The notes beneath the pieces are model-generated. The model saw nothing but the letters and a program-made list of their open reading frames with translations. It was not told where the DNA came from and made no database searches. The translations under genes were made by a program, and so were the position numbers. From positions 1 through 64,000 of the IMG/VR virus record IMGVR_UViG_3300048793_000029: a stretch of DNA of 64,000 nt, one strand, 5' to 3'. Shown here piece by piece: positions 1,065 through 39,006 of this stretch. The stretch is from a virus. The number at the start of each line of letters is the position of its first letter. Position 1 is the stretch's first letter.

Positions 1065-2057
1065 CTACAACCCATTCGGCTGATAAAGCACAATCTTCGA
1101 TCCGTCATCGTTGATACGTACGCCAACTTCAATCAAGCCACGCATAGCCTCGCGTAATTTAGCCCGCTCGCCTGGCCCCACCATGAACAGCATGAAGCCG
1201 CCAGCTCCGGCCCCCAGCAGCTTGCCGCCCCAGGCCCCCGCGGCCAGACCGGTCTGGTAGATCTCGTCTATCTTTGCATCAGATATGTTGGGCGCCAATT
1301 CGCGCTTGAACATCCACGAGTGGTGCAGCATCTCTCCTAAGTAGCTCAGCGGTGCGTCGGATGCCAGTAGCCCAAGACCGTCGTCTACCATCTTCTGCAT
1401 AACCAGCAAGCGGCCGGCATTAACCTTGGCACGCGCTATCTGGGCACCCGCCACCTCACTGGCGATGCGGCTAAAGCCGGTGAAGTATAGCGCCAGCGAC
1501 GCCTCAAACTCCTTGCGCCGCTCTTCCTTCAGGATGACGGGTTGCACCGAGTAGGCGCGATCGGGGTAGAACTCAATCTTGTTGAGGCCGCCGTAGGCCG
1601 CCCAGATCTGGTCCTGGCAGCCGACGTTCTCCTTGATAACTTCCTGTTCGACGTGGATGGCGTTGTCGGCCAGTACACGCTTGGTGATCATCGAGCCGTT
1701 GAGCGCCGTCATGGCGTTGATAAGGCCGACGGTAAAGGCGGACGAAGAGCCCATGCCGGACTTCGCTGGGATGTCGGCGTCGTGGTGGATCTCGAGGCCT
1801 TGCCTGGCGTCGAGAGTTTGGAGAACAGCCTTGACTGATGGGTGAACAATGTCGTGATTATCTTTAACCAGCTCGATTTTGGTGTAGGCCACGCGGCTGC
1901 GGTGCTCGAAGAACGGTGGTAGCCTGCGCACGGTGATCCAGCAGTATTTGTCGATGGCAAAGCCCAGCACCGCGCCACCATGCTCCTTGAAGTGGGCCGG
2001 GTAATCGGTGCCGCCGCCGAACAGGCTGACGCGGAATGGGGTCTTGGAGATGATCAT
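1065..2057 (-). CDS. GHMP-family sugar kinase (HddA-like heptose-7-phosphate kinase)
   Basis: MIISKTPFRVSLFGGGTD N-terminus, PAKSGMGSSSA ATP motif, GCQDQ, GGKLLGAGAGGF loop. Confidence 0.9.
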   Translation of the reverse strand: MIISKTPFRVSLFGGGTDYPAHFKEHGGAVLGFAIDKYCWITVRRLPPFFEHRSRVAYTKIELVKDNHDIVHPSVKAVLQTLDARQGLEIHHDADIPAKSGMGSSSAFTVGLINAMTALNGSMITKRVLADNAIHVEQEVIKENVGCQDQIWAAYGGLNKIEFYPDRAYSVQPVILKEERRKEFEASLALYFTGFSRIASEVAGAQIARAKVNAGRLLVMQKMVDDGLGLLASDAPLSYLGEMLHHSWMFKRELAPNISDAKIDEIYQTGLAAGAWGGKLLGAGAGGFMLFMVGPGERAKLREAMRGLIEVGVRINDDGSKIVLYQPNGL

Positions 2058-2404
2058 TTAACTACTATTTCAATAACGACAGGAATTGCATCATTGACGC
2101 TCTCGCGGTCTAGGATTTCGCGCAGGACTGCCATTCCGGTCTCTGTTTTCTTTTCGACGATGGGGCGGAAGCGTGAAGCCCGCCAATGCGGTTCCCCGAA
2201 GGCTGTATGATTATTGGTCCATCCCTCGTGATTTTTAACCTCCTCAAGACGAATTGAAATTATGGAAGGATCGCCAAGGGACGGGCCGATATCGCGTACA
2301 GTGTACGTTTGTCCGGCCATAGGCACTGCATAGCCAAGCAGTTCATTCCAACCCATGTCGCTATCATCCACGCACACTACCTTCTGCCCAACGTGAAATG
2401 CCAT
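2054..2404 (-). CDS. Hypothetical phage protein (MAFHVGQKVVCVDD...)
   Basis: Start moved to ATG 2404 behind AGGAG; the upstream part of the track ORF overlaps the epimerase. Confidence 0.65.
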   Translation of the reverse strand: MAFHVGQKVVCVDDSDMGWNELLGYAVPMAGQTYTVRDIGPSLGDPSIISIRLEEVKNHEGWTNNHTAFGEPHWRASRFRPIVEKKTETGMAVLREILDRESVNDAIPVVIEIVVK

Positions 2405-2414
2405 CTTAGTTCTC

Positions 2415-3344
2415 CTATGCGTTCCTGTATTTTTCATCTCGTAGCATCTGATACCCTTTGACCAGCTCCTCAATCCCCTGATCCAGCGACCGCGTCGCCC
2501 GCCAGCCGGTGGCCTCGATCTTGGCGTTGCTGACCACGTAGTCGCGCTTGTCCGGGTCTTCCCCCACGTCGGCGCCGACGAAGAACAGCTCCGGCACATG
2601 CTGCTTTATCTTGACCACTAGCTCGCGCTTGCTGATGTTGGCCGAGCTGAGGCCGACGTTGTAGACCTGGCCCCTCATGACGTCGAACTTATTCAATGCG
2701 TGCGTGAAGGCGTCCGCCACGTCGCGGACGTGGACGTAGTTGCGCCGGAAATGCTCCTCAAACAGCACGATAAAGCGGTCGCGCACGGCGCGGTAGACGA
2801 AGTCATTAACAAGGAGATCCAGCCTCATCCGCGGGCTCATGCCGAATACGGTGGCCAACCGCAAGCTGATGGAGTTCTGGCGGGACATGGCTGTTTCTTC
2901 GGCTTGGACCTTCAACTTGCCGTAAAGAGATACTGGCTTCAACGGAGACTCCTCGGTGCATTCGCCGTCAGTGCCTATACCGTACCCACTGTTCGTTACT
3001 GGAATAACGAGGAGTTGAGAGTCTCCCATCAAATGGCACAACGTTCTGACGGCGACGTAATTTGTCGAATAAGCCGCCGCATAGTCAGCGTCACAGGCCG
3101 GAGCACCTACGATGGCAGCCAACGGCAATACGGCATCAGCATGGAGGAGTAACGGCATCAGTGTTGCCTCGCTCCTCGCATCCCCCCGCACAATCTCCAG
3201 TTTGATATTGTGGCACAGGTGCGCCAGCGAGCACTGACCGTACATAAAGTTGTCTAGCACAGTGACGCGGCGGCCTTTGGCCAGCAACTGCTCGACGAGG
3301 ATGCTGCCAATATAGCCGGCGCCGCCGGTCACTAATATATTCAT
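2415..3344 (-). CDS. NAD-dependent nucleotide-sugar epimerase/dehydratase/reductase (extended SDR)
   Basis: MNILVTGGAGYIGS Rossmann motif, YGKLK (YxxxK), RNYVHVRDVA; start moved to 3344. Confidence 0.92.
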   Translation of the reverse strand: MNILVTGGAGYIGSILVEQLLAKGRRVTVLDNFMYGQCSLAHLCHNIKLEIVRGDARSEATLMPLLLHADAVLPLAAIVGAPACDADYAAAYSTNYVAVRTLCHLMGDSQLLVIPVTNSGYGIGTDGECTEESPLKPVSLYGKLKVQAEETAMSRQNSISLRLATVFGMSPRMRLDLLVNDFVYRAVRDRFIVLFEEHFRRNYVHVRDVADAFTHALNKFDVMRGQVYNVGLSSANISKRELVVKIKQHVPELFFVGADVGEDPDKRDYVVSNAKIEATGWRATRSLDQGIEELVKGYQMLRDEKYRNA

Positions 3345-3541
3345 GCCACCACCCATACCAGCCCGATGGCAGTCATCGCCAATGCCAGCCAGGCGATGCG
3401 GTTGGCCACCATCTCCTTGGACCTCTCGGTCATACCAAGAGCGGCTGCTATGGACGAGCACTCGTCGCCGCAGCGGCACGTCAGATGGAAGTCGTCCATC
3501 TCTAGCATCGTCTCGTACTTGTGAATGTGAAATGGGCTCAT
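3341..3541 (-). CDS. Small membrane protein
   Basis: C-terminal hydrophobic helix; ATGA-type overlaps with neighbours. Confidence 0.5.
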   Translation of the reverse strand: MSPFHIHKYETMLEMDDFHLTCRCGDECSSIAAALGMTERSKEMVANRIAWLALAMTAIGLVWVVA

Positions 3542-3660
3542 CGGAACCACCATCCGACGTGGCCAATGTGAAAGCCGAAGACCAGGGTAGCCACCGCAAG
3601 CATGACAACGATCACCACGCAGTGGTTGACGAAGTAGATAAGTCGCTCTGCGTTTTTCAT
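3538..3660 (-). CDS. 40-aa hydrophobic peptide
   Basis: Manual translation MKNAERLIYFVNHCVVIVVMLAVATLVFGFHIGHVGWWFR; fills the gap with ATGA overlaps on both sides. Confidence 0.5.
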   Translation of the reverse strand: MKNAERLIYFVNHCVVIVVMLAVATLVFGFHIGHVGWWFR

Positions 3661-4781
3661 TCCAGTACCTCCTTCATGACGCCTACCGCCAGTTCGATTA
3701 GCTCAGGGATGGGGTAGGGCGCATTTCCAATGAACAAGCCGGCGCGGTGGATGCGATCGGCGTTGGGCGTTAACTGGTCGGCCCAGGGCTTGCCGATTGG
3801 GTGTTTGGTAAAACTGCCTCCGGTTGGCAAGCGGCAATCAACTCCGTTGGCACGAAGTGCGGCTACAAGCGGCGAGCGTTGCGCAGGGTCATTCAAAGAG
3901 AACGACATGCCGAATGGATTCGCCGTTCCTTCCATGACTTGCATAGTTATCGGCAGGCCCTTGGTAACCTCCACAAACGTATTCCAATTCTGGCGACGCG
4001 CCGTTCGGTACAGTGGCAACTTCTTGAGCTGCTCGCGCTGCACTGCGGAGTTTATCTCCAGCGGTCGCACGTTGAAGGCGGAACTAATTGCGAAGCAGTA
4101 TTCGTCCTCGAACTTAGTGGCTTTCTGCACGTCACGGGTCCAGCCGTGGCTGCGAATCATCTTGCACAAGCGATTAATTTCCACGTCGTCGGTAAGAATA
4201 GCACCGCCTTCTATTCCAGAAATTTGATGCGACATGAACATCGACAACGTACTAATGTCGGCCAACGTTCCGATCTTGTGACCGCTTTCGGTAACGGCTC
4301 CGATCGACTCACAAGCGTCCTCGATGCAGTAACTGCCATTTCTTCTCGCGTCGAGAAGCCATTCATCGATATGAGATGGATTGCCGAGAATGGGGCAGCT
4401 AACAACTAGCCTTGCTTGCTGGTAGTTGTACGGCAGAGCGTTCCACGTCTCGTCTATGTCGGCGACAATCAAGTTGAGACCGTAGAGAATCAGCGGCGAC
4501 CAAGTGGTGGCCCAAGCGATAGATGGAACGACGGCAAGGTCACCACGCTTCAGAGGATTGTTCTGGATATGAAATAGCGCAGCAACGGCGATCAAGTTGG
4601 CGCTCGATCCTGAATTTGTGGCCACGCAGAAGTTGCGGCCGTGAAAGGTGGCAAGTTCCGATTCCAGCGCTTCGGTCTCGGGGCCGTAGGTGAACCAGCC
4701 ACTTGCAACGACACGCTGGATGGCTTCTTGTTCTTCCGTTGCCCATGCGGTGAAGCCTGTGGGATATTTATAAACCGTCAT
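3657..4781 (-). CDS. DegT/DnrJ-fold PLP enzyme, ColD/E1-like NDP-4-keto-6-deoxysugar 3-dehydratase
   Basis: NSGSSANL, IEDACESIG, SMFMSHQISGIEGG (His at the usual Schiff-base Lys, as in ColD/E1), HGWTR, FNVRPLE. Confidence 0.8.
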   Translation of the reverse strand: MTVYKYPTGFTAWATEEQEAIQRVVASGWFTYGPETEALESELATFHGRNFCVATNSGSSANLIAVAALFHIQNNPLKRGDLAVVPSIAWATTWSPLILYGLNLIVADIDETWNALPYNYQQARLVVSCPILGNPSHIDEWLLDARRNGSYCIEDACESIGAVTESGHKIGTLADISTLSMFMSHQISGIEGGAILTDDVEINRLCKMIRSHGWTRDVQKATKFEDEYCFAISSAFNVRPLEINSAVQREQLKKLPLYRTARRQNWNTFVEVTKGLPITMQVMEGTANPFGMSFSLNDPAQRSPLVAALRANGVDCRLPTGGSFTKHPIGKPWADQLTPNADRIHRAGLFIGNAPYPIPELIELAVGVMKEVLE

Positions 4782-4782
4782 C

Positions 4783-5160
4783 TCACTTCCCTACTTGCCT
4801 AAGCGCATCCTGGGCCATGAACGCTGCGCGTATCATGCAGCTATCCCGTCCGGTCTCGGGCCACTCCGGGTGGTCCCAGCACCACACCTTCCACGCTGGC
4901 CGGCAGGCGCTGGCAAACAACATGAAAGTGGATTCGAGATCCTCGTCATGCGAGGAATAAGAGCCGCTTCGGCCTTGAGTTAGTAGGCACGTTTGAAGTT
5001 CTCTCTCAAACTTCTGCGATATCAAAAATCTTTCGCCTTGCGACATTGCAGAGACTTGTGCCGTCACGGGAACCACGGGACCTGCCGTCAGGAACATGCC
5101 AGTTAAGGCGATCAGGACTGTCACCGCGATGATCAGAAGATTTTTTAGGTAGCTGGTCAT
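4783..5160 (-). CDS. Hypothetical protein with N-terminal signal/TM segment
   Basis: Hydrophobic N-terminus LLIIAVTVLIALTGMF; AGGAG upstream of ATG 5160. Confidence 0.55.
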   Translation of the reverse strand: MTSYLKNLLIIAVTVLIALTGMFLTAGPVVPVTAQVSAMSQGERFLISQKFERELQTCLLTQGRSGSYSSHDEDLESTFMLFASACRPAWKVWCWDHPEWPETGRDSCMIRAAFMAQDALRQVGK

Positions 5161-5168
5161 AATCGCTC

Positions 5169-7007
5169 CTACGTCACCACATTCGGCATAGTCGGCTTCA
5201 GCCAACCTTCGACCGGCTCGATGGTCATGTTCTTGCGAAACTCGGCGCGCGGCAGGTACGGGTAAAGATCCTCAATTGGCGTTTTCCATCCGACCACGCG
5301 CGGCTCATAGGTGTGATAGTCGTAGCACTCGACGATACAGATCATCGACTTGGAGTGCGCCAGCAGGACGTTGATCGCCGCGCCCATATCCTTCAGCACG
5401 CCGTCATGCTGCCCTCCAATTCTGATTACGTCCATCCCATAGGCTTGCGCCACTCGCTCGAAGTCCGGCGGGTTATAGCCCTTCGGCCCGCAGGCCTCGG
5501 CGCGACCCTCGAAGTTAGTCTCCTGGAACGCCTTGGTGATGCCGTAGATGCGATTATCGAGGATGATGGTCTTGACCACCGCGCCGTAATTGATCAGCGT
5601 CTGGATCTCCTGGAGGTTCATATTAAAGCCGCCATCGCCGATGACGCAGATGATAGTCTTGGTCGGGTCGGCGAACCAGGCTCCCAGTGCGCCGGCAAAC
5701 GAGAAGCCCATCGGGCTGTTGCCATTGTTGGTAATGAAGCGCTGGCCGCGCTTGGTCTCGAAGGCGTGGGACAGCACCACAATGTTGCCGCCGCAGTCGC
5801 CAACCAGAATTGTTTCTGGACTGCACTTTTCGGATAGCGTTTCGACGAAGGTATAGAAGTCGCAGCCGGCCCTAACCTTCTTGGCGGGCCGCGCCGGGTA
5901 CTGCCTCTGCCAGCCGCGGCATTGCGCCAGCCAATCGGCGTGGCGTGGCTGGTAGCCCTCCAACGCGGCAGCCAGCCTCGCCAGGTAAAGCCGAACGTCG
6001 CAGCGGGTACTGACGTCGAACGGCACCTGCTGCAGCTCACGCCGCGTCAGCGCCGGGTCGATGTCGACGAGGTACTTCTTGGCTGCACGCGCCCAGGTCT
6101 CCGGCGCACCGCCGGTTATCCGGCCCGATATTCTTGAGCCCACGGCCAATAAGAGATCTGAATTTTGCAGGCCGAAGTTGCGCCCTGCGCCGCCGTAGGT
6201 GCCGATACGGCCGCCGTACCAAGGCAGGTCGGAGGTGACGACGTCGAGGGCATTCCAAGTCGGGTAGCAAGGGATCTGCAGCAGCCCGGCCACTTCGAGG
6301 AATAGGTCGACCGCGCCGGCCGAGCGGACGCCGCCGCCAACCAGCAGCACGGGCCGCTCGCTTTGTTCGAGGTCGATGACGAAGTCACTCACGTCGCGGT
6401 CTATCTCGGCTACCGACGCGGAGGCATTGAGCAGATCGCGGTTCTCGGCATCACGAATATCAAAGCTTTCAAGTGTGTCAGGATCAATCATGGCCTGCTG
6501 GACGTCGATCGGCAGGTCGAGCAGCACCGGGCCGGGGCGGCCGTGCTGACAGAGGAATAAAGCTCGCTCCAGCTCGTAGCGAATGCGGGCTGGATCGGTG
6601 ACCATTGTGGCCGACTTGGTCACCGGCTTGAACATGGAAATCACATCGGCCTCTTGAAAGCCAATCTGGCGAAGCGAAGGATCTGGCCGCAGGAACCGAG
6701 TCTTGATCTGGCCGGTGATGAAGATGGCCGGTACGCTGTCGTAGAAGCAGTTACCAGCTGGAGTTATTAAATTCATAGCGCCGGGACCGGAAGTCGCGAT
6801 CGCCAGCCCCGGTACGCCCCTTATTTTAGAAAACCCCTCGGCAGCAAAACCAGCAGCTTGTTCAACCATACAAGCAACGTAGGAGATCTGGTTTGTCCTT
6901 GTAAAAGCGTCTACCAAATCACCGTTGGCCGATCCGTACACGAGAAAGGCGTGACTGATGCCGTGGGCAGCAAGCGTGTTGATTATATAGTCTGCAACTT
7001 TGATCAT
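5169..7007 (-). CDS. Thiamine-diphosphate-dependent enzyme (acetolactate synthase-like/YerE-like)
   Basis: EQAAGFAAEG (catalytic Glu), TSGPGAMN, GFQE, GRPGPVLLDLP, GDGGF...N ThDP motif. Confidence 0.9.
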   Translation of the reverse strand: MIKVADYIINTLAAHGISHAFLVYGSANGDLVDAFTRTNQISYVACMVEQAAGFAAEGFSKIRGVPGLAIATSGPGAMNLITPAGNCFYDSVPAIFITGQIKTRFLRPDPSLRQIGFQEADVISMFKPVTKSATMVTDPARIRYELERALFLCQHGRPGPVLLDLPIDVQQAMIDPDTLESFDIRDAENRDLLNASASVAEIDRDVSDFVIDLEQSERPVLLVGGGVRSAGAVDLFLEVAGLLQIPCYPTWNALDVVTSDLPWYGGRIGTYGGAGRNFGLQNSDLLLAVGSRISGRITGGAPETWARAAKKYLVDIDPALTRRELQQVPFDVSTRCDVRLYLARLAAALEGYQPRHADWLAQCRGWQRQYPARPAKKVRAGCDFYTFVETLSEKCSPETILVGDCGGNIVVLSHAFETKRGQRFITNNGNSPMGFSFAGALGAWFADPTKTIICVIGDGGFNMNLQEIQTLINYGAVVKTIILDNRIYGITKAFQETNFEGRAEACGPKGYNPPDFERVAQAYGMDVIRIGGQHDGVLKDMGAAINVLLAHSKSMICIVECYDYHTYEPRVVGWKTPIEDLYPYLPRAEFRKNMTIEPVEGWLKPTMPNVVT

Positions 7008-7012
7008 GTTTT

Positions 7013-7068
7013 GCCTGCTTTGCTAAGCTCCGCTGCGCTGCATTTGGCTTCGCTGTGCTATGCCTGCT
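7013..7068 (-). repeat. Single pentamer-coded unit (AGCAGGC + 9 x NN-AGY), putative guide RNA
   Basis: Minus strand: agc aggc AT agc AC agc GA agc CA aat GC agc GC agc GG agc TT agc AA agc aggc. Confidence 0.85.
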
Positions 7069-7511
7069 TAGGCCTCCATCCTTGCCTCTCCCTTTTTCTT
7101 ATCCTGTTGACGCCTGATCTTGGCAACTTCCGACCAGATTGGCTTAAGGGCCTTGAGGCGCTCGTATTTCGTTTCGATGCGGTGCAGCTCATTCAAGGCA
7201 TCGGCCATCATAATGTCCTTGAGCGACTTGTCCCGAAGGACTTCCTCGATGTCACGGTAGCCGCCGCCTTCCTTTGGCCGGTCCAAGCTGAGCGAGACAA
7301 ACTTCCGTTCACCGTCCTTGAAAGTAATGTGAACGGCGATCAGTTGCCTTACCTGCCAAAGCCGATATTCGTGGCCAGCCTTGCTGTTATTCCATTCCAG
7401 CCGCTTGTACAGGTCCGAATCTGGATGCGCCTTGGACCACTCAAGAACTTCTTCAGCAATCAGAAGTTCTTTGCCGTTCTTTATCTCTAGTAATTCACTC
7501 TCGATGCTCAT
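7068..7511 (-). CDS. Partner protein of the Cas7-like/pentamer-array module
   Basis: 147-aa ORF with AAGGAG RBS, lying between repeat units; motif HPDSDLYKRLEWNNSKAGHEYRLWQVRQLI. Confidence 0.75.
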   Translation of the reverse strand: MSIESELLEIKNGKELLIAEEVLEWSKAHPDSDLYKRLEWNNSKAGHEYRLWQVRQLIAVHITFKDGERKFVSLSLDRPKEGGGYRDIEEVLRDKSLKDIMMADALNELHRIETKYERLKALKPIWSEVAKIRRQQDKKKGEARMEA

Positions 7512-7530
7512 TTTGTAACTCCTTTGGTTT

Positions 7531-7817
7531 GCCCGCTTTGGTTTGCTTTGCTGAACTGTGTTCAGCTATGCTGGGATTGGCTACGCCTGCTTTGGTTTGC
7601 TGCACTTTGCTGAACTGATCTGTGCTGAGCTACGCTACGCCTGCTTTGCCGCGCTTCTCAATGCTTGACTTTGCTTGGCTACACTCGGTTTTGCTATGCC
7701 TGCTTTGCTTTGCCGCACTGGGCTCATCTGAGCTGTGAGGCGCTCTGCTGGGCTGAGCTTAGCCTGCTTTGCTGCACTTGGCTGGGCCACGCTTCGATAA
7801 GCTGTGCTACGCCTGCT
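7531..7817 (-). repeat. Array of five pentamer-coded units (NN-AGY)n delimited by AGCAGGC; putative non-coding guide RNA array
   Basis: Delimiter gcctgct on + at 7585, 7639, 7698, 7762, 7811 and degenerate gcccgct at 7531; spacings 54, 54, 59, 64, 49 are all 4+5n. Confidence 0.9.
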
Positions 7818-8482
7818 CAGTCCATACTCACCTTGAATGTTCCCTTTCCTGTTCCGCCACTCATTTTGCTCAAAGGCCTTCCGGCCCCGATACCAACCTG
7901 CCAGCCGGCGCGGGCCAGAAGATTGACAATATCCTGGGCCTTGAAGACATCGTCGTCCCACTCGATCTCAAATTTGGCTGACCACTTCTCGAAAATCGCT
8001 CGCGCTGCCAAATCGGTTGACGCCATGCCAACCTTGACCCGCTCGATATGCATCCTCGGCTCGCCTTCGATCTTGATCAGCGGTTCTAGGTTCTCCGCAT
8101 CGAGCCCTTGAGCGACGATGAAGATGCACATCTTGGCACGGACCATGTCCATCTCAGTCAGGCGGCAAGCGTCGATCATAGCATTGCGCAGCGCGGTGGC
8201 TGGAATACCGGGCCACCCTTCCTTAGATATGTGCATTGAGCCACGATACACCTTCTCGAAATCCTTCGGCGCCTTTGCTTTGCGGGTCTTCTTGGCCGCC
8301 GAACCTTCCTTCTGCGTTGCGAGCATCTTGTCGCGGTTCTCGGAACTGAACCGGTTCTGCAAATAGGGAGCAGTACCGGTGATCTTTACTCTAGCCGTTG
8401 CCATCTTTGGCGGCGTGATGGTGACTTTCGTTTCCGTAACAGGGGCCGCGCTAACGGCCTTCAGTTGCATTACTTTTGACAT
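7817..8482 (-). CDS. Stand-alone Cas7/RAMP-like RNA-binding protein
   Basis: RAMP-like signature: ARVKITGTAPYL, GIPATALRNAMIDA (cf. IPgsslKGa), C-terminal Gly-rich loop GIGAGRP...GGTGKGTFKV; directly upstream of the repeat array. Confidence 0.7.
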   Translation of the reverse strand: MSKVMQLKAVSAAPVTETKVTITPPKMATARVKITGTAPYLQNRFSSENRDKMLATQKEGSAAKKTRKAKAPKDFEKVYRGSMHISKEGWPGIPATALRNAMIDACRLTEMDMVRAKMCIFIVAQGLDAENLEPLIKIEGEPRMHIERVKVGMASTDLAARAIFEKWSAKFEIEWDDDVFKAQDIVNLLARAGWQVGIGAGRPLSKMSGGTGKGTFKVSMD

Positions 8483-8516
8483 CTTTTAGTCCTCTCTGCT
8501 GTGGTTTGTTAAGTCT

Positions 8517-10046
8517 TCACGTTACATCTTCCAACAAATTCCGCTTCAACTTATATGACGTCATTCCCTTCACATGCTTCCGCGCCTCCTGCCCGAACCG
8601 CTGAGCAATCGAATCAAGGTAGCGGGGGCTAGTGAAGTACGCCTGGAACGCTTGATCGCGAGCGCGGAGAACAGCGGCGGGGGACAAGTCGCCGGTGACG
8701 TAGGGGATGGTGTGCTCGTTGTGCATGCTGAAGGCCTCCCACGGCGGTGGCTTCCAGCCGGCGGCGACCGCGTCGTCGTAGAGCTTGCTACCGGGGAACG
8801 CTTGCGTGGGATAAAAGTTCGCCCACGCGGTGTTGAGTTCTTGGGCCAGCGCAAGGGTCGCCTCCATAGTCTCTGGCGTCTCGCCGGGTAGGCCGAAGAT
8901 GTAGTTGGCGCCGATGTGGATGCCGGCCGCCTCGATCTTGTGGACCACGGCCTTGATCTGCTCTGACGACATGCTCTTGTCGGCGCCGTCGCGGACTTCG
9001 GCGCTACCGGACTCGATGCCCAAGGCAAACCATTTAAAGCCGGCGGCGCGGAACAGTCCTAGCTCGCCGACCTCGAACTTGTAGTCGGGGCGGCAGTAGC
9101 ACCAGCTGTTGATCTTCTTGCCCAGGCCCGACGCAATCAGCCGCTCGCAAATCGCCTTGGTGTGGCGGCGGTTCAAGACGAACAGTTCATCGACGAACTT
9201 GAAGGTTTCGACACCGTGGTCGCGGTTGAGCATCACCATCTCGTCAATCACAGCTTGCGGGTCGCGCATGCGGTAGCGGTTGGTGTGTTGAAAGACATTT
9301 ATCATACAGAAACTACAAGTGAACGCGCATCCAAGTGAAGTGCAGATGGCGGCGTAGGGGCTGCGCTTTGATTGGTCGTCGAACCGCTGCCAGTTGTGCG
9401 AGCGGTACTTGGATGGAGGCGGCAGCAGGTGCCAGGCGCGGCCGTGCAGGTCCTTGTTGATGTCGAGCAGCGGGGCGCGGTGGTTTTGCTTAACAACATC
9501 ATCCAGGGTTTTGGCACGACCAGCTTCTAGAGCTTCTGTACTGCACCATACCAGTCCAGGAACTTCCCACAGCGGGTCGTTGTTGAGCAGCCCCATGATG
9601 GTCAGCGGCCCCTCGCCGTCGATCACGAAGTCTACTGGCTCCTCAACCAAAGTCTGCACCGGCAGGGCCGACGGGTGGTTGCCCATCATGACGATCTTCG
9701 GCTGCCGGTCGAGGTCGGCGCCTATGTCGGACGTTCGGTAGCTCTGCCGGATGGCCTCCGCCGCCAGCCTCGCCCCCGGCATGGCCTGGGTGCTGGCGCT
9801 GGGCTGATGGCCCGACACCACGATAGCAGCGATGCGAGGGTTGAGGGCCGCGACCCGTTCGCCTATCTGGCCGGGGCTCAGCCCCTCGCACTCGGCATCG
9901 ATGATCTTGACGTCGACGCCGCGGTCAAGCAGGTAGCCTGCTATCAAGCGGGGCCACAACGGCTGCTCACGGCTAACCAGCGTATCGCCGAGCTGGCCGT
10001 AGATGCCGTGGACGCCGTTGGGGTGGATCAGGACTACGTCAACCAT
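8517..10046 (-). CDS. B12-binding radical SAM enzyme (class B methyltransferase-like)
   Basis: CAFTCSFC (CxxxCxxC), GNHPSALP cobalamin-domain motif, FVDELF, LGIESGS, YIFGLPGET; start moved to ATG 10046. Confidence 0.9.
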   Translation of the reverse strand: MVDVVLIHPNGVHGIYGQLGDTLVSREQPLWPRLIAGYLLDRGVDVKIIDAECEGLSPGQIGERVAALNPRIAAIVVSGHQPSASTQAMPGARLAAEAIRQSYRTSDIGADLDRQPKIVMMGNHPSALPVQTLVEEPVDFVIDGEGPLTIMGLLNNDPLWEVPGLVWCSTEALEAGRAKTLDDVVKQNHRAPLLDINKDLHGRAWHLLPPPSKYRSHNWQRFDDQSKRSPYAAICTSLGCAFTCSFCMINVFQHTNRYRMRDPQAVIDEMVMLNRDHGVETFKFVDELFVLNRRHTKAICERLIASGLGKKINSWCYCRPDYKFEVGELGLFRAAGFKWFALGIESGSAEVRDGADKSMSSEQIKAVVHKIEAAGIHIGANYIFGLPGETPETMEATLALAQELNTAWANFYPTQAFPGSKLYDDAVAAGWKPPPWEAFSMHNEHTIPYVTGDLSPAAVLRARDQAFQAYFTSPRYLDSIAQRFGQEARKHVKGMTSYKLKRNLLEDVT

Positions 10047-10276
10047 CACCAACTCCTCGCGGCCAAGCCGCTGGCAAACCCCACCACCTGCTTCACGCCA
10101 CCACCTCGCAACCCTACCTGATACCTCAGCTCCTCGGCCAGCCGCGTGCCGTAGTAGCCGGCGCACTTGAGGCTGGCCTTGAGCACCGCTTCCGAACCGC
10201 CGGCGGCATATTCCCGGCAAGCTCGCTCGTAGCGCCAGCGGTGGACCTCGGCGGCATCGGGGTTGGAGCCTAGCAT
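10046..10276 (-). CDS. Hypothetical protein
   Basis: 76-aa ORF tightly packed between neighbours. Confidence 0.5.
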   Translation of the reverse strand: MLGSNPDAAEVHRWRYERACREYAAGGSEAVLKASLKCAGYYGTRLAEELRYQVGLRGGGVKQVVGFASGLAARSW

Positions 10277-10278
10277 TT

Positions 10279-10617
10279 TTAGTCCTCAACCCGCCGCAGA
10301 CCCTCGGGGGTATATTCTTGCTGGCGGCGAACGTGGTAGATGCCCTTGTCAAACATAATCGGCTCGTGCTGGTCAAACTCGCGCAGGTGCTCAAGCGCGG
10401 TTGGCTCGTCAACTACCAACAAACAATCCATTATCGAGTCCGGCAACCGATACATTGTGACACTCTCGGCCTTCATGACGTGGTGATGGCCGGTTTCCGA
10501 GTGGGTCACGATCACACGGCCAGCTTCGGCCTTTACAGCAACAACCGCTTCCGGCAACGCATTGATGCGGCGGATGTAGATGTCGCCCTGTGCGCAGTAG
10601 TCTTTGAAGGTTCTCAT
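10279..10617 (-). CDS. Conserved phage protein, His-rich cupin-like
   Basis: QGDI...HSETGHHH...LEH...HEPI...RRQQEY pattern, recalled as the usual neighbour of DUF6745 genes. Confidence 0.65.
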   Translation of the reverse strand: MRTFKDYCAQGDIYIRRINALPEAVVAVKAEAGRVIVTHSETGHHHVMKAESVTMYRLPDSIMDCLLVVDEPTALEHLREFDQHEPIMFDKGIYHVRRQQEYTPEGLRRVED

Positions 10618-11704: not shown

Positions 11705-11922
11705 TCGCTCAGCTCATAGTTGCTGTAACTGTTCTGCTTTTCGTAGTCCCAGTCTAGGTCGTCAATGGGCCTGACTTGGATTCGCTGTTTGACTTCATGC
11801 GTGAGGCAATACGCCTTGCGCTCCTCGAAGGTCTTGAGCCGCAGGTACTCGTCGAGGCGAAAGTCAATCATTGCTGTCGGTCCCTCGAAAGAGGGTGCAT
11901 CCTCTTGAAATGACCCTCGCAC
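11701..11922 (-). CDS. Hypothetical protein (true start probably the internal MIDF)
   Basis: ORF track; packing with neighbours. Confidence 0.45.
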   Translation of the reverse strand: MRGSFQEDAPSFEGPTAMIDFRLDEYLRLKTFEERKAYCLTHEVKQRIQVRPIDDLDWDYEKQNSYSNYELSE

Positions 11923-12299
11923 CAGGAAGTGCCTGGCTTCACAACATCACCACAAAATAACATTGTCGAGGCTTCGCCTTCGATCCACCGACAGTGCCAC
12001 GACTTGGCATCGTATAGGTTAACACCGCCTTTCGTGGATCGCGACCTATTTGGTCTCGGCGGCAGCCTCAACTTGACCTTCTTGAACCGTCGGGCCGGCA
12101 CTCGCTCAAACTCGCGCTTGATCGATGGCTCGCGATCGGTGCGGATGGAGTTAGTTCTTACGATGCCGAGGCGGTGCAACTTGCCTATGATGGCGTTGCG
12201 ACTGACGGCTCCGACCTCCCTGGTGATCTCTAGCGTACTTTTACCGAGAGCGTGAAGTTGCTTCAGTAGAGTAGTGCGATCATTGGTCCAGAAGGTCAT
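11868..12299 (-). CDS. gcrA: GcrA cell-cycle regulator-like protein
   Basis: WTNDRTTLLKQLHALGKS...VSRNAIIGKLHRLG N-terminus and CRW...FCG...WCEGH C-terminus. Confidence 0.85.
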   Translation of the reverse strand: MTFWTNDRTTLLKQLHALGKSTLEITREVGAVSRNAIIGKLHRLGIVRTNSIRTDREPSIKREFERVPARRFKKVKLRLPPRPNRSRSTKGGVNLYDAKSWHCRWIEGEASTMLFCGDVVKPGTSWCEGHFKRMHPLSRDRQQ

Positions 12300-19034: not shown

Positions 19035-19243
19035 TGTTGTTCCGTTAGGCGTCGCAGTACCTCTCGCTTACGCTCGAGTTCGGCTTTGGCGAAGCCCCCC
19101 AATTTGCGTAGAGCGTTCAACTCGATCTCGGCTTGACCCAGTTGTTCCTCAGCGTGACGTTCACGAATGGTGATCGCTTTGCTGACTTCGACCAAGCCGG
19201 TGATCTCTTCACGAATAGCTTTGATGGGATCGAACTCACTCAT
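19031..19243 (-). CDS. Coiled-coil hypothetical protein
   Basis: 70-aa ORF with ATGA overlaps. Confidence 0.6.
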   Translation of the reverse strand: MSEFDPIKAIREEITGLVEVSKAITIRERHAEEQLGQAEIELNALRKLGGFAKAELERKREVLRRLTEQQ

Positions 19244-19701
19244 GCGACAAGTTCGTTGGTCAAATAATTGATAGTGTACCCGCCGGGGGTCATGCGATAG
19301 ACTTCGACGCCGGCAGCGACGAGAAGGTCAATGCCTTCAACAAGGCGATACTGGTTGAGATAAAATATTTTCTCAACCTTCTCTTTGATAATGATCGCGG
19401 CGCAGTCCGGGCAAGGACTCTCGGTGACATAGAGGGCCTTGCCTGAAGTTCGACGCCTATCCCACGAGGAGAGACGCTCAAAGGCATTCACTTCGGCATG
19501 CACCGCACGATGGCAGCCAGCTGAACTTGGACAATTCTTACCTGTACAGTGAGGCTCTCCCGAGGCGGGACCGTTATACCCAGAACTTATGATGCGATTA
19601 TCGGCGACGAGAATAGCCCCAACGCTACGTCGGTAACACGTCGATCGAAGAGCCTCTACCTCGGCATGTTTCATCCACAGCTGATTTCGGCTAATTCTCA
19701 T
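19240..19701 (-). CDS. dCMP deaminase-like zinc deaminase
   Basis: RSTC...VGA...GYNG, HAEVNA, PCPDC. Confidence 0.92.
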   Translation of the reverse strand: MRISRNQLWMKHAEVEALRSTCYRRSVGAILVADNRIISSGYNGPASGEPHCTGKNCPSSAGCHRAVHAEVNAFERLSSWDRRRTSGKALYVTESPCPDCAAIIIKEKVEKIFYLNQYRLVEGIDLLVAAGVEVYRMTPGGYTINYLTNELVA

Positions 19702-20563
19702 CCGACACCCCGTGCTCTTTAGTCAGTTGAATGTAATCATTGCGGAACATGTGCAAATTGGCGATCTGCAAGACAAAGACGCCAGGCAATACACCAGTCC
19801 ACTGAGCTGGGTCCATGAGACGTAGCTGATCGAGAGCCCACAGGAGGAGGCGCACGGTGAGATAGATATCGTCACGCATGTGATGGGCGAGGTCACACGA
19901 ACGAAGCTGATAAGAGATATCGAGTGAATTGCCGGTGAGCATGAAATGATAAAAAAGCGAGCAGGGCTTGCGACGGCCTGGTTGGTAGCCCGTATCTTCG
20001 GGGAAGAACACTGGTAATATCGCCTGTCGTGTGGTGGGATCTTCCTTTAGCTCGAGCACGACATCATCGAGATCACCGTAGGGGAAGTAAATACCCCGAT
20101 GGGATGGTGGAGTCAAGACACCATCTTCAGGCAAGATGCCTCCTGAGTACATGCCAGCGTACTTAGGCCAGTAACGCATGGCGTAAGTGTGATCAAAGAT
20201 TCGCTCTGGGCCGGGATCACCGACGCTCAGTGGATCTATGCGCGACTTATCGGCGCTGGCGCCCCACGGCCAATTTCGCCATTCTTTGCCCGGGTTGAGG
20301 GGATTTCCATCCACTCGTTCTTCGAAGTGATTGTCGGCCCAGGGAAGGTTAGGTTTGATCTCTCGGCGATAAAAACCTAGCTCTTTTAGGACCATGGGAA
20401 CTTTCATGGTAAAGTGATGCAGCTCATGTGTTGCGGCATCCGGCTTTCGCGAGACGTCGATGCCTTGCCATTTCCCGCGATGCACGAGTAAGCTACGCAG
20501 ACGCATCTGGTCAAGGGCGTAGTCGATGGCTTCGGGAAAGCTATTGAAGGTCGTCACTGTCAT
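19691..20563 (-). CDS. Thymidylate-synthase-superfamily enzyme (dCMP hydroxymethylase/methylase-like)
   Basis: TRQA, KPC catalytic Cys, RSCD...D, NLH; start moved to about 20563. Confidence 0.8.
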   Translation of the reverse strand: MTVTTFNSFPEAIDYALDQMRLRSLLVHRGKWQGIDVSRKPDAATHELHHFTMKVPMVLKELGFYRREIKPNLPWADNHFEERVDGNPLNPGKEWRNWPWGASADKSRIDPLSVGDPGPERIFDHTYAMRYWPKYAGMYSGGILPEDGVLTPPSHRGIYFPYGDLDDVVLELKEDPTTRQAILPVFFPEDTGYQPGRRKPCSLFYHFMLTGNSLDISYQLRSCDLAHHMRDDIYLTVRLLLWALDQLRLMDPAQWTGVLPGVFVLQIANLHMFRNDYIQLTKEHGVSDEN

Positions 20564-21440
20564 CTCCATCAGGATCAACATAGTTATTGCGAAAGCCCGG
20601 GTGGTTTTTTCGTAGATAGACTTGAAGCTCGCGTTGCCTTTTGTGGCTGATGCGCTCAAGGGCATCCTTACGCACGCGCATCGCTTGACTAAATTTCTCA
20701 ATCCCACGACGATGCTCGGGGCAGAGATAACGAGCGCTCCACTTGACCAGCCAGTTGGCGAAGAAGCCATCAGCTCGTTTGATAGCATCGATGATTCGTA
20801 GCGGATCGTTTAGGTGGGGGATGATCGTTACGAAGTACATAGGATGAATGGTGACGTTCGCAAAGTGGGCTGTGACACCTCGACACTCAAGACCCTTAAA
20901 GTCAAACGGCGAGAGAAGGACATCCCGGAGAAGGATAAGATCGGCGGGAAATTTCTTAAAGAGCTCCGTGGTCCTATAGAAAACGTCAATGGTATAAGTT
21001 TTCTTGGTGAGTAAGGTGATGACTACAGATTGGATGCAGGGGCCAAAAACACTGGCACGTTTCGATCGCTTGGCGTCGATGGAGCCTCCTTTGACGAAGT
21101 GGGCATAGGTCGTGAAACCTACGCTCCCATACTTGCCCTGCTCTTTTCGTTTGTTCCACAGCTGAAGAGCGACGTTACGGCTCTCTTCGTGAAGATAGTG
21201 CTTGGTCAACATCGTCAGCTTGCTTTTGGTGTAGCCGGCGTCTCGGAGTTGGAGAGAGTCGTCAAGAGAGGAGAAGTGCAAAGTCATGGGTCTCAGAATC
21301 TTGCGGCAGCCTGAATATAAATCGGCTACTTGGCCTGAGGCGTCCAGGCAATGCTGAACCCACTCTTCCCTAAGCGTACCGCCGCCCTGCCGACCGCGAG
21401 ACGCGACGACAGAGCGGCGGGGCTTCGACCGGGTCACCAC
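20541..21440 (-). CDS. Divergent second thymidylate-synthase-fold protein
   Basis: GPCIQSVV...FYRTTELFKKFPAD resembles the TS PC...RSxD...N/D core. Confidence 0.5.
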   Translation of the reverse strand: MVTRSKPRRSVVASRGRQGGGTLREEWVQHCLDASGQVADLYSGCRKILRPMTLHFSSLDDSLQLRDAGYTKSKLTMLTKHYLHEESRNVALQLWNKRKEQGKYGSVGFTTYAHFVKGGSIDAKRSKRASVFGPCIQSVVITLLTKKTYTIDVFYRTTELFKKFPADLILLRDVLLSPFDFKGLECRGVTAHFANVTIHPMYFVTIIPHLNDPLRIIDAIKRADGFFANWLVKWSARYLCPEHRRGIEKFSQAMRVRKDALERISHKRQRELQVYLRKNHPGFRNNYVDPDGDDSDDLQ

Positions 21441-38433: not shown

Positions 38434-39006
38434 ATGAAAAAGATAATTACTGCCATCGTGCTAGCTTGTGCTTGGCTGTTGGCGCCGCTGCCGGCTAATG
38501 CTGTCGTTGTAGTGTCATCCTGCTCATCGATAACGGCGGTGACGGGCTTCAGCGGTGACTTGTATATTGATACGTCAGGTAAGCTGTGTATCAATGCAAG
38601 TACCACTTCGTTGCCCCCCAACGCCGCCCAGGAAACCGGCGGCAATCTCGCGGCGATCTTGTCGGCTATTCAATCACCGCTTGCTGGTGTTTCCGAATCG
38701 CATAGCGCAGCGGCGGAATCATCGCGGGTTGCCAAAAACTCCGCTGGTAACGTAATCAGCATATCCGGCTCTGCCGCTGCCGGTTCCTACATCATGCTTT
38801 TCGATCTTACTGCCGCACCTAGCAATGGTGGTGTGACACCGAAGAAATGCTGGGGACCGATGGCATCGAGTGGACCGTTTTCGTTTTCATGGGGTGTCGG
38901 GCCAACCCTTACGATGGCGACCGGGATAACGGTCGTCTCTAGCTCAACCGGCTGCTTCACGCAGACATTAACCAACGCCAACTTCATCAGCGTGGAGTAT
39001 CAGTAA
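38434..39006 (+). CDS. Signal-peptide-bearing beta-rich protein
   Basis: MKKIITAIVLACAWLLAPLPANA signal; Ser/Thr-rich. Confidence 0.7.
   Translation: MKKIITAIVLACAWLLAPLPANAVVVVSSCSSITAVTGFSGDLYIDTSGKLCINASTTSLPPNAAQETGGNLAAILSAIQSPLAGVSESHSAAAESSRVAKNSAGNVISISGSAAAGSYIMLFDLTAAPSNGGVTPKKCWGPMASSGPFSFSWGVGPTLTMATGITVVSSSTGCFTQTLTNANFISVEYQ

What the first reader, a model, noticed from the sequence alone, without database searches (positions are those of the whole stretch)
7531..7817. Array grammar: AGCAGGC delimiters, strict 5-nt phase, variable dinucleotides
On the minus strand, delimiter spacings are 49, 64, 59, 54, 54 nt (all 4+5n), i.e. 9-12 pentamers NN-AGY, with occasional GGC/ATC/AAC/ACC/AGA variants. 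NN strings: U1 GT AC TT GA GT CC CA GC AA; U2 TA TC CC AG GC AC TC TG CC GC AA AA; U3 AT AA CG GT CA AA CA AT GA GC AA; U4 GT GT TC AC TC TC AA GC AA AA; U5 GT CA CC AT TG AC TC AA AA AA. Every unit ends in AA, and U1-U4 have GC before it, suggesting a constant 3' handle. A period of 5 argues against protein coding, and the different NN strings argue against simple slippage. Information appears to be stored in the NN positions, like spacers interleaved within the repeat.
Basis: seen in the sequence. Interest (0 to 1): 0.9.

Follow-up and report, generated by a model that had tools for sequence, protein, structure and literature searches.

The report
Phage VIPR guide-RNA array, AGC type
The five-base repeat tract is a guide-RNA array of a phage VIPR system, a CRISPR-like RNA-guided DNA-silencing system first described in 2026, here in a version whose constant part reads AGC instead of GGY.

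Summary
On the minus strand, 7817-7531 holds five units of 9-12 phased pentamers NN-AGC. The units are joined by a 4-nt AGGC step, giving spacings of 49, 64, 59, 54 and 54.

The 221-aa gene upstream folds as a CRISPR RAMP/Cas7 (top Z 11.5). It aligns end to end with the array-flanked 195-aa protein of phage SUSP1 (hhalign 94.8%).

The 147-aa gene between the arrays is a strictly linked accessory gene: 35 of 35 related loci carry both genes, and 32 of 35 carry arrays. Across 220 related units the NN positions hold 0-0.1 bit (0.30 at one) and the RGC positions 0.5-1.5 bit.

It differs from the studied type II. The constant part is AGC, there is no 3' tail, the junctions are "staggered", and the accessory gene is unrelated.

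Two results seem new:
- AGC-type and GGC-type arrays co-vary with the residue aligned to SUSP1 D177, which reads G1.
- One of six guides matches, under the 1-nt-skip rule, a VIPR-less sibling phage's copy of the adjacent gene at 16 of 16 bases. The phage's own copy matches at 14 of 16.

This is a new member of a known kind.

The parts
7817..8482 (-). vipr: 221-aa RAMP-fold protein. A source calls a 217-aa form that starts 12 nt downstream. Its stop codon TGA overlaps the first AGCAGGC junction.
   Evidence: ORF. phrog_4652 of unknown function. No Pfam or NCBIfam match. Model pLDDT 88.4. Foldseek gave 42 matches with E <= 1e-3, and every listed row is a CRISPR RAMP complex. VIA Z 11.5 to Csm3. 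hhalign to the SUSP1 195-aa protein: 94.8%, E 5.5e-8.
7531..7817 (-). vrRNA array 1. It holds five units; the A of each AGGC is at 7814, 7765, 7701, 7642 and 7588. The units have 9, 12, 11, 10 and 10 pentamers NN-AGC. A terminal GGGC lies at 7534-7531, followed by the ribosome-binding site of the next gene.
   Evidence: Identical in the contigs of 4 runs. No significant fold, z = -1.16.
7068..7511 (-). vap-like accessory gene, 147 aa. Its stop codon TAA overlaps the AGCAGGC junction of array 2.
   Evidence: ORF. phrog_15946 of unknown function. 20 homologues. 35 of 35 loci found with it also carry vipr next to it. The model has an N-terminal domain (residues 1-93) and a long C-terminal helix. 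Only weak winged-helix-like matches. No similarity to the SUSP1 146-aa neighbour.
7013..7068 (-). vrRNA array 2. It is one unit (U6) of 9 pentamers between two AGCAGGC junctions and ends 5 nt before the ATG at 7007.
6847..6869 (-). Near-target of U6 in the phage's own TPP-enzyme gene, codons 47-54 (MVEQAAGF). [quoted passage not shown]
5169..7007 (-). Context, not part of the system. This is the TPP-dependent enzyme gene, first gene of a sugar-modification cassette directly downstream of the VIPR insert.
   Evidence: Pfam TPP_enzyme N, M and C domains. In the sibling phage G001 this gene follows the radical-SAM gene after 187 nt, with no vipr, vap or array.

Best explanation
The tract is the guide-RNA (vrRNA) array of a phage-encoded VIPR system.

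Shown here:
- The array lies inside a leftward early operon, immediately after a Vipr homologue of Cas7-like RAMP fold.
- The array flanks a strictly co-inherited 147-aa accessory gene.
- It consists of six units of 9-12 pentamers, with a conserved trinucleotide RGC (AGC in this phage) and free NN dinucleotides.
- The units are joined by a 4-nt AGGC step.

Inferred from the published type II systems (SUSP1, P. fulva):
- The operon transcript is cut at or near the AGGC junctions into RNAs of about 50-65 nt.
- One Vipr protomer binds each pentamer and buries the trinucleotide.
- The NN bases are presented to pair with double-stranded DNA that reads NN-x-NN-x, so every third base is skipped.
- Binding silences transcription of rival mobile elements.

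What is particular to this system:
- The first constant base is A. The residue aligned to the G1-reading aspartate of SUSP1 Vipr (D177) is alanine, and the column of the histidine H17 holds asparagine.
- There is no structured 3' tail.
- The cassette is absent from a sibling phage that aligns by blastn over 59% of its length at mean 94.8% identity.
- Guide U6 fits that sibling's copy of the adjacent TPP-enzyme gene perfectly and the phage's own copy imperfectly.
For: Protein:
- The model has pLDDT 88.4.
- Foldseek against the PDB gave 42 matches with E <= 1e-3. Every listed row is a CRISPR RAMP complex (Csm3, Cmr4, Cas7-11), including 6ifn_E, the Cas7 query used by the discoverers.
- In the VIA-align search the top 32 rows are RAMPs, with best Z 11.5 at rmsd 3.6 over 145 residues.
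- hhalign of the 39-sequence alignment against the SUSP1 195-aa array-flanked protein gave 94.8%, E 5.5e-8, 177 columns, end to end.
- The glycine-rich loop G193-G214 and the arginines aligned to SUSP1 R138 and R179 are invariant.

RNA grammar:
- Of 365 distinct junction-to-junction units in related loci, 252 are 4 mod 5. The modes are 49, 54, 44 and 59 nt, that is 8-11 pentamers.
- In 220 units the NN positions carry 0.00-0.11 bit (0.30 at the first base of the last pentamer) and the R, G and C positions carry 0.5-1.5 bit.
- SUSP1's own arrays read NN-GGT.

Linkage:
- 35 of 35 loci found through the 147-aa protein have vipr adjacent, upstream in 34.
- 32 of 35 show a period-5 RGC array on the gene strand by my detector. 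Two more show degenerate arrays by eye, and the third locus ends 83 nt after the gene.
- Cultured relatives carry the same arrays: Cyanophage Cy-LDV1, Gordonia phage ODay and Mycobacterium phage Donkeykong.

Co-variation:
- Arrays are either AGC-type (7 loci) or GGC-type (19 loci).
- Two Vipr columns separate the two types without exception. Window position A200 holds A or C in AGC-type loci and E or D in GGC-type loci, and aligns to SUSP1 D177. Window position A159 holds A, L or V in AGC-type loci; in GGC-type loci it is R in 18 of 19.
- The column aligned to H17 is N in 6 of 7 AGC-type loci and H in 13 of 19 GGC-type loci.
- D177 and H17 are the published G1 contacts (10.64898/2026.04.26.720927, section 5 read).

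Target:
- With its constant last AA dropped, U6 matches G001 at TPP codons 47-54 at 16 of 16 bases, in frame, with the skipped base at the wobble position.
- None of 200 order-shuffled guides reaches 16; their maximum is 15.
- The phage's own gene matches at 14 of 16. The two copies differ at 6 of 8 wobble positions within the site.
- G001 has no vipr, no vap and no array.
- Of the 120 best TPP homologues among 6757 hits, only the sibling's protein has the compatible peptide.
Against: - No RNA data exist. None of the 9 runs that hold the stretch is on record as RNA. Transcription, processing sites and RNP formation are therefore all inferred.
- Five of six guides have no target. Exact 1-nt-skip scans gave 0 matches for U2 (IMG/VR subset, JGI metagenomes, GTDB genomes). 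They gave 0 for U3, U4 and U5 in IMG/VR.
- The U3 scan of the metagenomes gave 4 loci, which are 2 distinct sequences at chance level. The other guides do not converge on them.
- The U1 scan gave 5 loci, also without convergence.
- Two all-against-all local scans, of 188 and 196 family guides against 0.46 and 0.73 Mb, showed no excess for skip 1 over shuffles.
- The single U6 hit is one of 17 exact hits of a 16-base pattern, and I picked it out after the fact.
- In SUSP1, a GGY>AGY change is listed among the tested perturbations, and perturbing GGY abolished silencing. AGC function here rests on co-variation alone.
- That co-variation amounts to one clade plus one long-branch outlier, L042, so only one or two independent events.
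- The accessory protein is unrelated to SUSP1 vap1, and its DNA-binding fold is only weakly suggested.
Confidence: 0.9

Rival explanations
1. A single-stranded RNA track for a ring-shaped or regulatory RNA-binding protein. The model is TRAP, which reads (G/U)AG triplets at a spacing of about 5 nt. The track would control translation or termination of the downstream genes rather than guide DNA recognition.
For: This was my first reading. It rested on the 5-nt register, the 9-12 repeats per unit, the unstructured purine- and C-rich RNA (T 10.8%; fold z = -1.16) and the position between a stop codon and the next ribosome-binding site.
Against: - The linked protein is a Cas7-like RAMP homologous to SUSP1 Vipr, not a TRAP-like ring.
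- The NN bases are free across 220 units.
- Arrays reach about 1.2 kb in relatives and sit on either side of the accessory gene. This does not fit a leader-type regulator.
- TRAP properties are recalled, not tested here.
Confidence: 0.04
2. A neutral, decaying pentanucleotide satellite made by replication slippage and unequal recombination, with no function.
For: - Unit number and array position vary freely between relatives.
- The window's own array 1 is absent from the five closest of the 8 loci found with the 221-aa protein (L001-L004, L006). There vipr and vap abut.
Against: - The trinucleotide and the AGGC junction are kept while the NN bases are randomised. This holds across phages whose accessory proteins are only 31-58% identical.
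- The strand and the linkage to two genes are kept in 35 of 35 loci.
- The A-or-G choice co-varies with a protein residue.
- The array is identical in contigs from four studies.
Confidence: 0.02
3. The system is a VIPR, but U6 acts on the phage's own genome. It would dampen the downstream sugar-modification operon by partial pairing at 7 of 8 NN pairs. The perfect match to the sibling would simply reflect the ancestral allele.
For: - U6 lies 5 nt upstream of the very gene it nearly matches.
- The own-gene match is 14 of 16 bases, or 7 of 8 NN pairs. With the last AA dropped, this is above the 80% NN-match threshold used in the discovery paper.
Against: - 13 of 200 shuffled guides also reach 14 of 16 in the phage's own genome.
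- With the last AA counted, the self match is 7 of 9 pairs, below 80%.
- The papers report guides whose self-match is lower than their non-self match as the rule.
- Both bases of the mismatched pair differ (AC against GT).
Confidence: 0.15
4. A DNA-level element, such as a replication origin, a packaging site or a recombination hotspot made of 5-bp iterons.
For: The array lies in the replication and early module, near the DNA polymerase, exonuclease, Sak4, SSB and helicase genes. The strand asymmetry is strong: AT skew is -0.315 in 7001-8000.
Against: - No replication initiator or terminase gene lies next to it.
- The sibling phage, a complete genome with terminal repeats, lacks the whole element. 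The element therefore cannot be essential in cis.
- The homologous systems act through RNA.
Confidence: 0.02

Closest known systems
VIPR type II of Escherichia phage SUSP1 and the P. fulva prophage. Sources: bioRxiv 10.64898/2026.04.26.720920, 10.64898/2026.04.26.720927 and 10.64898/2026.10.15.759431.
   Same: - It is phage-encoded.
- It has a small RAMP protein homologous end to end.
- It has pentamer repeats with a constant trinucleotide and free NN, about 9-12 per RNA.
- Arrays lie on both sides of a two-gene operon.
- Near-identical relatives lack the vipr-vap segment.
- One guide fits a rival better than self, with the skipped base at the wobble position.
   Different: - The constant part is AGC (RGC in the clade), not GGY.
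- The residues aligned to the G1 and G2 contacts D177, W178 and H17 are A, G and N. The G-loop carries an 8-residue insert.
- There is no invariant pseudoknotted tail. Units abut through a 4-nt AGGC step.
- The accessory protein is unrelated to the SUSP1 neighbour.
- The source is peat and permafrost metagenomes.
'Staggered' VIPR arrays and the alternative YNNNG repeats mentioned in the discovery paper (fig. S18 legend and methods), and the non-canonical 5-mer motifs in 10.64898/2026.10.21.760802.
   Same: - The 1-nt overlap of successive vrRNAs equals the 4+5n spacing seen here.
- C-NN-R-G is a YNNNG repeat in the paper's register.
   Different: - I could not see the figures or supplements, so I cannot say whether this clade, or the AGC motif, is among their 667 systems or which of types I-VII it is.
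- The passages I read name GAC, CAC, WGT and TGH motifs, not AGC.
Cas7 backbone filaments of class 1 CRISPR effectors (Csm3, Cmr4, Cas7-11).
   Same: - It shares the fold: RRM core, glycine-rich loop and thumb.
- One protomer binds per fixed step of guide RNA, as published for both systems.
   Different: - The register is 5 nt with 3 bases buried and 2 read, instead of a 6-nt register with 1 base flipped.
- There is no repeat-spacer array.
- No other RAMP was noticed among the 14 window ORFs that I scanned against Pfam or PHROGs. I ran no dedicated cas search.
TRAP-trp leader RNA (recalled from the textbook case).
   Same: It has about 11 short conserved triplets at a spacing of about 5 nt on an unstructured RNA.
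   Different: The protein fold is different, it does not guide, and its spacer bases carry no information. The resemblance is one of form only.

Membership tests
VIPR system | A small (about 20 kDa) Vipr protein with the RAMP fold: RRM core, glycine-rich loop and thumb. | tested here: met
   - The protein has 221 aa. The model has pLDDT 88.4 and pTM 0.80.
- Foldseek gave 42 matches with E <= 1e-3, and every listed row is a RAMP.
- VIA gave Z 11.5, 11.2 and 10.9 to Csm3, Cmr4 and Csm3. The discoverers' cut-off was Z 6.
- Glycines 193, 197, 199, 201, 210 and 214 are invariant.
VIPR system | Sequence homology to an experimentally studied Vipr. | tested here: met
   hhalign of A2 against the SUSP1 195-aa protein (NC_028808.2, 28474-29061, minus strand) gave 94.8%, E 5.5e-8 and 177 columns. 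I identified that gene as vipr from its size and its flanking NN-GGT arrays. The paper's gene name was not visible to me.
VIPR system | Tandem pentamers with a conserved trinucleotide alternating with hypervariable NN, 9-16 per vrRNA. | tested here: met
   - The window has 6 units of 9-12 pentamers.
- In the family, NN carries 0.00-0.11 bit (0.30 at one position) and RGC carries 0.5-1.5 bit over 220 units.
- The commonest unit lengths correspond to 8-13 pentamers.
VIPR system | The canonical GGY trinucleotide. | tested here: not met
   In the window 32 of 52 pentamers are AGC, 7 are AGT and only 3 are GGC. The clade consensus is R-G-C. The paper allows 'a related consensus' and YNNNG repeats. 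This therefore does not exclude membership, but it sets the system apart from type II.
VIPR system | An adjacent accessory (vap) gene. | tested here: met
   35 of 35 loci carry vipr and the 147-aa gene side by side. A DNA-binding role is only weakly suggested. Forkhead and winged-helix matches have E about 0.2, and two N-domain rows have Z about 6.
VIPR system | The vrRNAs are expressed, processed and bound by Vipr. | not testable with these tools
   No listed run that holds the stretch is on record as RNA. The runs that I laid are contigs only.
VIPR system | The NN bases specify DNA targets by the 1-nt-skip rule, and the targets lie in rival mobile elements. | tested here: inconclusive
   - One of six guides (U6) matches a VIPR-less sibling phage at 16 of 16 bases. 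The match is in frame, and 0 of 200 shuffles equal it.
- The other five guides have no exact match or only chance-level ones.
- Scans that tolerate mismatches were not possible on the large collections.
VIPR type II (SUSP1 clade) | An invariant structured 3' tail after each repeat tract, and a vap1 accessory gene. | tested here: not met
   - Units abut through AGGC with nothing between them.
- The fold z-score is -1.16, and 14 of 100 shuffles fold as well.
- A1 against the SUSP1 146-aa neighbour gives probability 0.4%.
VIPR types I, III-VII | Placement in the Vipr phylogeny, array architecture and the vap1-6 family. | not testable with these tools
CRISPR-Cas | A repeat-spacer array of about 60-80 nt period, with cas1/cas2 or further effector subunits. 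| tested here: not met
   The period is 5 nt. The 14 window ORFs that I scanned against Pfam or PHROGs, flanking the cassette on both sides (10 per call, 3 ORFs in both), are replication and sugar-metabolism genes. No Rfam family reached its threshold over the whole window.

The most novel reading that the evidence does not exclude
The 'constant' half of the VIPR code is itself evolvable. In one subclade the G1-reading acidic residue (the SUSP1 D177 column) became Ala, and the His17 column became Asn, together with a wholesale GGC-to-AGC switch of the arrays. The result would be an orthogonal Vipr/vrRNA pair that rival elements' solo or decoy GGY vrRNAs cannot load onto or hijack.

In this phage the system would be used against a near-identical, VIPR-less sibling. 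Guide U6 would silence the sibling's sugar-modification operon at a site where the phage's own allele escapes through a two-base Thr-to-Val codon change.
Probability: 0.25. Interest if true: 0.7.

Novelty: new member of a known kind. Interest (0 to 1): 0.45.

Why it matters
VIPR was described only in 2026, and its experiments come from E. coli and Pseudomonas type II systems. This locus shows the same logic in an uncultured peat or permafrost phage. It also places homologues with arrays in cultured phages of Mycobacterium smegmatis, Gordonia terrae and a cyanobacterium, where the system could be tested.

Three points go beyond the passages I could read:
- A clean split into AGC-type and GGC-type arrays tracks the residue aligned to the published G1 contact. 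This would be a natural experiment on how the protein reads the constant trinucleotide.
- The arrays have no tail and are joined by a 1-nt-short step. This raises the question of what cuts them.
- A candidate natural target lies in a sibling phage that lacks the cassette.

For annotation, such arrays are being called as genes. Donkeykong gp48 is one example.

The first-stage reader deduced the NN-as-information idea from sequence alone.

Tried and rejected
Searches of the window that found nothing:
- Tandem Repeats Finder saw only a 21-nt period-10 fragment.
- Rfam at gathering thresholds found nothing in the window.
- Pfam and NCBIfam found nothing for either protein.
- blastn of 6900-8600 against the phage records found no match.
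- A genome-contig scan with the accessory-protein alignment found no relative.

RNA evidence: no RNA holder is listed among the sequencing runs.

Readings rejected:
- A TRAP-like reading was my first idea. I dropped it once the RAMP fold and the VIPR papers appeared.
- Coding is rejected, because all six frames carry stops.
- A G-quadruplex was considered for the GGC-type arrays. It cannot apply to AGC arrays, which have one G per pentamer. This is reasoning, not a test.

Exact 1-nt-skip scans. A prime (as in U2') marks the guide without its constant last AA.
- U2 in full: IMG/VR 0.
- U2': metagenomes 0 and GTDB genomes 0.
- U3': IMG/VR 0.
- U3': metagenomes 4 loci. Three share one AT-rich sequence from large contigs. 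The fourth is a GC-rich contig where the likely real gene is on the other strand and out of register. No other guide converges on them.
- U4' and U5': IMG/VR 0.
- U1' (16 bases): 5 loci, with no convergence.
- U6' (16 bases): 17 loci, of which only L065 is meaningful.
- One of those loci, L060, matches all 18 bases of U6, about what chance gives among 17 hits.

Other target tests:
- Local all-against-all scans at skips 0-3 showed no excess for skip 1. The excess at skip 3 came from array copies that my mask missed.
- The U1' pattern with up to 3 mismatches found nothing in G001.
- No sigma-70-like promoter or terminator lies within the arrays.
- The VIA search with the accessory-protein model was dominated by its long C-terminal helix and is uninformative for that part.

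Not done: no skip-0, skip-2 or skip-3 control scans were run on the big collections.
Full report
**What is there**

The window is the first 64 kb of a single 72,249-bp virus record.

On the minus strand a 221-aa ORF (8482-7817) ends in a TGA that overlaps the first AGCAGGC. From there to 7531 the sequence parses without remainder into five units. Each unit is AGGC followed by 9, 12, 11, 10 or 10 pentamers. A closing GGGC and the ribosome-binding site of a 147-aa ORF (7511-7068) follow.

- Of 52 pentamers, 32 end in AGC, 7 in AGT, 3 in GGC and 10 in other trinucleotides.
- Identity at lag 5 is 0.50. First-order Markov resamples give 0.274 +/- 0.031, so z = 7.2.
- All six frames carry stops.
- The RNA has no significant fold: z = -1.16.

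Directly after the TAA of the 147-aa gene comes another AGCAGGC, nine pentamers and a closing AGCAGGC (7068-7013). It ends five bases before the ATG of the next gene. No other such array exists in the 72 kb.

Contigs of four further public runs from four studies cover the array with no difference. It is therefore not an assembly artefact.

**Relatives**

The 221-aa protein recovered 8 IMG/VR loci, and an alignment of the 147-aa protein recovered 35.

- All 35 carry the two genes side by side.
- 32 of 35 show a period-5 RGC array on the gene strand by my detector. Two more (L034, L035) show degenerate arrays by eye, and L038 ends 83 nt after the gene.
- Arrays lie after the 147-aa gene, between the two genes, or both. 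They reach about 1.2 kb.

Among 365 distinct junction-to-junction units, 252 have a length of 4 mod 5. The modes are at 49, 54, 44 and 59 nt.

In a logo of 220 units the NN positions hold 0.00-0.11 bit. The one exception is 0.30 bit at the first base of the last pentamer. The three constant positions hold 0.5-1.5 bit, and the AGGC junction is essentially fixed.

**Identification**

A full-text search for pentanucleotide repeats in phages found the VIPR discovery preprint, 10.64898/2026.04.26.720920. I read its results, discussion and four methods sections, plus passages of the figure legends. It describes these features:

- a roughly 20-kDa RAMP protein (Vipr);
- an accessory vap gene;
- vrRNAs of 9-16 pentamers, in which GGY is constant and NN is hypervariable;
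- pairing of the NN bases to double-stranded DNA with one base skipped per repeat;
- targets in rival phages and satellites;
- seven types, related consensus motifs (including YNNNG) and 'staggered' arrays whose vrRNAs overlap by 1 nt.

The last point is the 4+5n step seen here.

Three more preprints exist:

- a cryo-EM study, 10.64898/2026.04.26.720927 (section 5 and passages read);
- a phage-satellite study, 10.64898/2026.10.15.759431 (abstract and section 8 read);
- a language-model survey that lists non-canonical 5-mers, 10.64898/2026.10.21.760802 (passages read).

**Membership tests**

The 221-aa model (pLDDT 88.4) matches CRISPR RAMPs.

- Foldseek gave 42 matches with E <= 1e-3, and all listed rows are Csm3, Cmr4 or Cas7-11 complexes.
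- In the Foldseek-independent search the top 32 rows are RAMPs, with Z up to 11.5.

I fetched SUSP1 (NC_028808.2; the accession was recalled and then confirmed). I found its NN-GGT arrays on both sides of a 195-aa and a 146-aa gene pair.

- The 39-sequence alignment of the window's protein aligns with the 195-aa protein end to end: hhalign 94.8%, E 5.5e-8.
- The 147-aa protein shows no similarity to the 146-aa neighbour.
- Its fold matches are weak. An N-terminal winged-helix-like domain gives E about 0.2 and Z about 6, followed by a long helix.

So the system is a VIPR, but not type II. It has no tail, the junctions are staggered, and the accessory gene is different. I cannot assign a type, because the defining figures and supplements were not available to me.

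**What seems to be new**

1. *AGC-type and GGC-type arrays co-vary with the protein.* Per locus, arrays are almost pure AGC-type (7 loci, including the window) or GGC-type. L021 is mixed.
   - This is not simply a matter of G+C content. L015 at 60% G+C is all AGC, while L039 at 58% is all GGC.
   - In an alignment of 26 family Viprs (27 rows with mixed-type L021), two columns separate the types without exception.
   - Window position A200 holds A or C against E or D. It aligns to SUSP1 D177.
   - Window position A159 holds A, L or V, against R in 18 of 19 GGC-type loci.
   - The column of SUSP1 H17 is N in 6 of 7 AGC-type loci and H in 13 of 19 GGC-type loci.
   - D177 and H17 are the published contacts of G1, and a D177A change kills silencing in SUSP1.
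   - The arginines aligned to R138 and R179 are invariant.
   - Caveat: on the tree the AGC loci form one clade plus the long-branch L042, so this is one or two events.

2. *A candidate target.* All six guides were scanned under the 1-nt-skip rule with exact patterns. The last AA was dropped from all but the first scan, because AAAGC is constant in this phage.
   - Five guides gave nothing or chance-level hits.
   - One of the 17 hits of the 16-base U6 pattern lies in a complete 71,920-bp phage, G001. It aligns by blastn with the window's phage over 59% of its length at mean 94.8% identity.
   - G001 has no vipr, no vap and no array. Its radical-SAM and TPP-enzyme genes are separated by 187 nt at the place where the window carries the 1.5-kb cassette.
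   - The hit covers codons 47-54 of G001's TPP-enzyme gene. It is in frame, with the skipped base at the wobble position, and matches at 16 of 16 bases. None of 200 shuffled guides reaches this.
   - The window's own gene starts 5 nt after U6 and matches at 14 of 16. It differs by one codon (GTT for ACC). The two alleles differ at 6 of 8 wobble positions in the site.
   - Among the 120 best of 6757 homologues of the enzyme, only the sibling's protein carries the compatible peptide.
   - This is a single hit chosen after the fact. I rate it as suggestive, at about even odds.

**Context**

The cassette sits at the end of the leftward replication and early operon. That operon holds the genes for DNA polymerase I, an exonuclease, a Sak4-like protein, SSB, an SNF2 helicase, a GcrA-like regulator, DUF6745 and a B12-radical-SAM enzyme. 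Downstream lies a sugar-modification cassette: TPP enzyme, DegT aminotransferase, epimerase and GHMP kinase.

The runs that hold the stretch are labelled peat and permafrost metagenomes.

Homologues with arrays occur in cultured phages: Cy-LDV1, Gordonia phage ODay and Mycobacterium phage Donkeykong.

**Verdict**

The element is a new member of the VIPR kind, with a non-canonical AGC constant part. Expression, processing and targeting remain inferred.

Noticed in passing
L050 2006-2357 (Mycobacterium phage Donkeykong, NC_051648.1 about 36884-37235): A GGC-type pentamer array with GGCAGGC junctions lies directly upstream of the Vipr homologue gp49. It is annotated as a protein-coding gene, gp48 'hypothetical protein'. 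This is probably a mis-called CDS.
   Followed up: partly
window 1065-7007 and 8517-10412, minus strand: The phage carries an auxiliary cassette: a B12-binding radical-SAM enzyme, a TPP-dependent enzyme, a DegT-type aminotransferase, an NAD-dependent epimerase/dehydratase and a GHMP kinase. It looks like a sugar-nucleotide pathway and is shared with the sibling phage G001 at 84-90% nucleotide identity. That is lower than the 95-98% of the structural genes.
   Followed up: partly
window 11868-12299, minus strand: A GcrA-like cell-cycle regulator gene (Pfam PF07750, E 8e-20). From recall, GcrA is typical of Alphaproteobacteria and their phages, so this hints at the host.
   Followed up: no
G001 (L075/L076) 38474-38661: Where the window has the VIPR cassette, the sibling phage has a 187-nt spacer. 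It holds a small ORF for a hydrophobic peptide of about 59 aa. The direction of the event, insertion or replacement, is unknown.
   Followed up: no
L021 5717-6840: This is the only locus with a mixed array: 41% AGC and 41% GGC among 91 pentamers. Its Vipr has the AGC-type residues (A at both separating columns). This protein type may accept both A and G at the first constant position.
   Followed up: no
L049 3125-3325 and 3915-4085 (Cyanophage Cy-LDV1, BK059895.1): The layout is the same as in the window: vipr homologue g34, then an array, then g33, then an array. It lies beside a cI-like repressor and an excisionase, that is, in the immunity region of a temperate cyanophage.
   Followed up: no
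L044, L045, L047 (JGI metagenome contigs of 19.5, 144 and 374 kb): The same AT-rich coding sequence (peptide INRVQNHIDA near a C-terminus) matches guide U3 without its last AA at 20 of 20 bases, in frame. No other guide converges on these contigs. I take it for chance at this database size, but did not test that.
   Followed up: partly
window 19240-20788, minus strand: A dCMP deaminase gene and a thymidylate-synthase-like gene lie next to each other in the early operon (PHROGs). This may be nucleotide-pool or DNA-modification chemistry.
   Followed up: no
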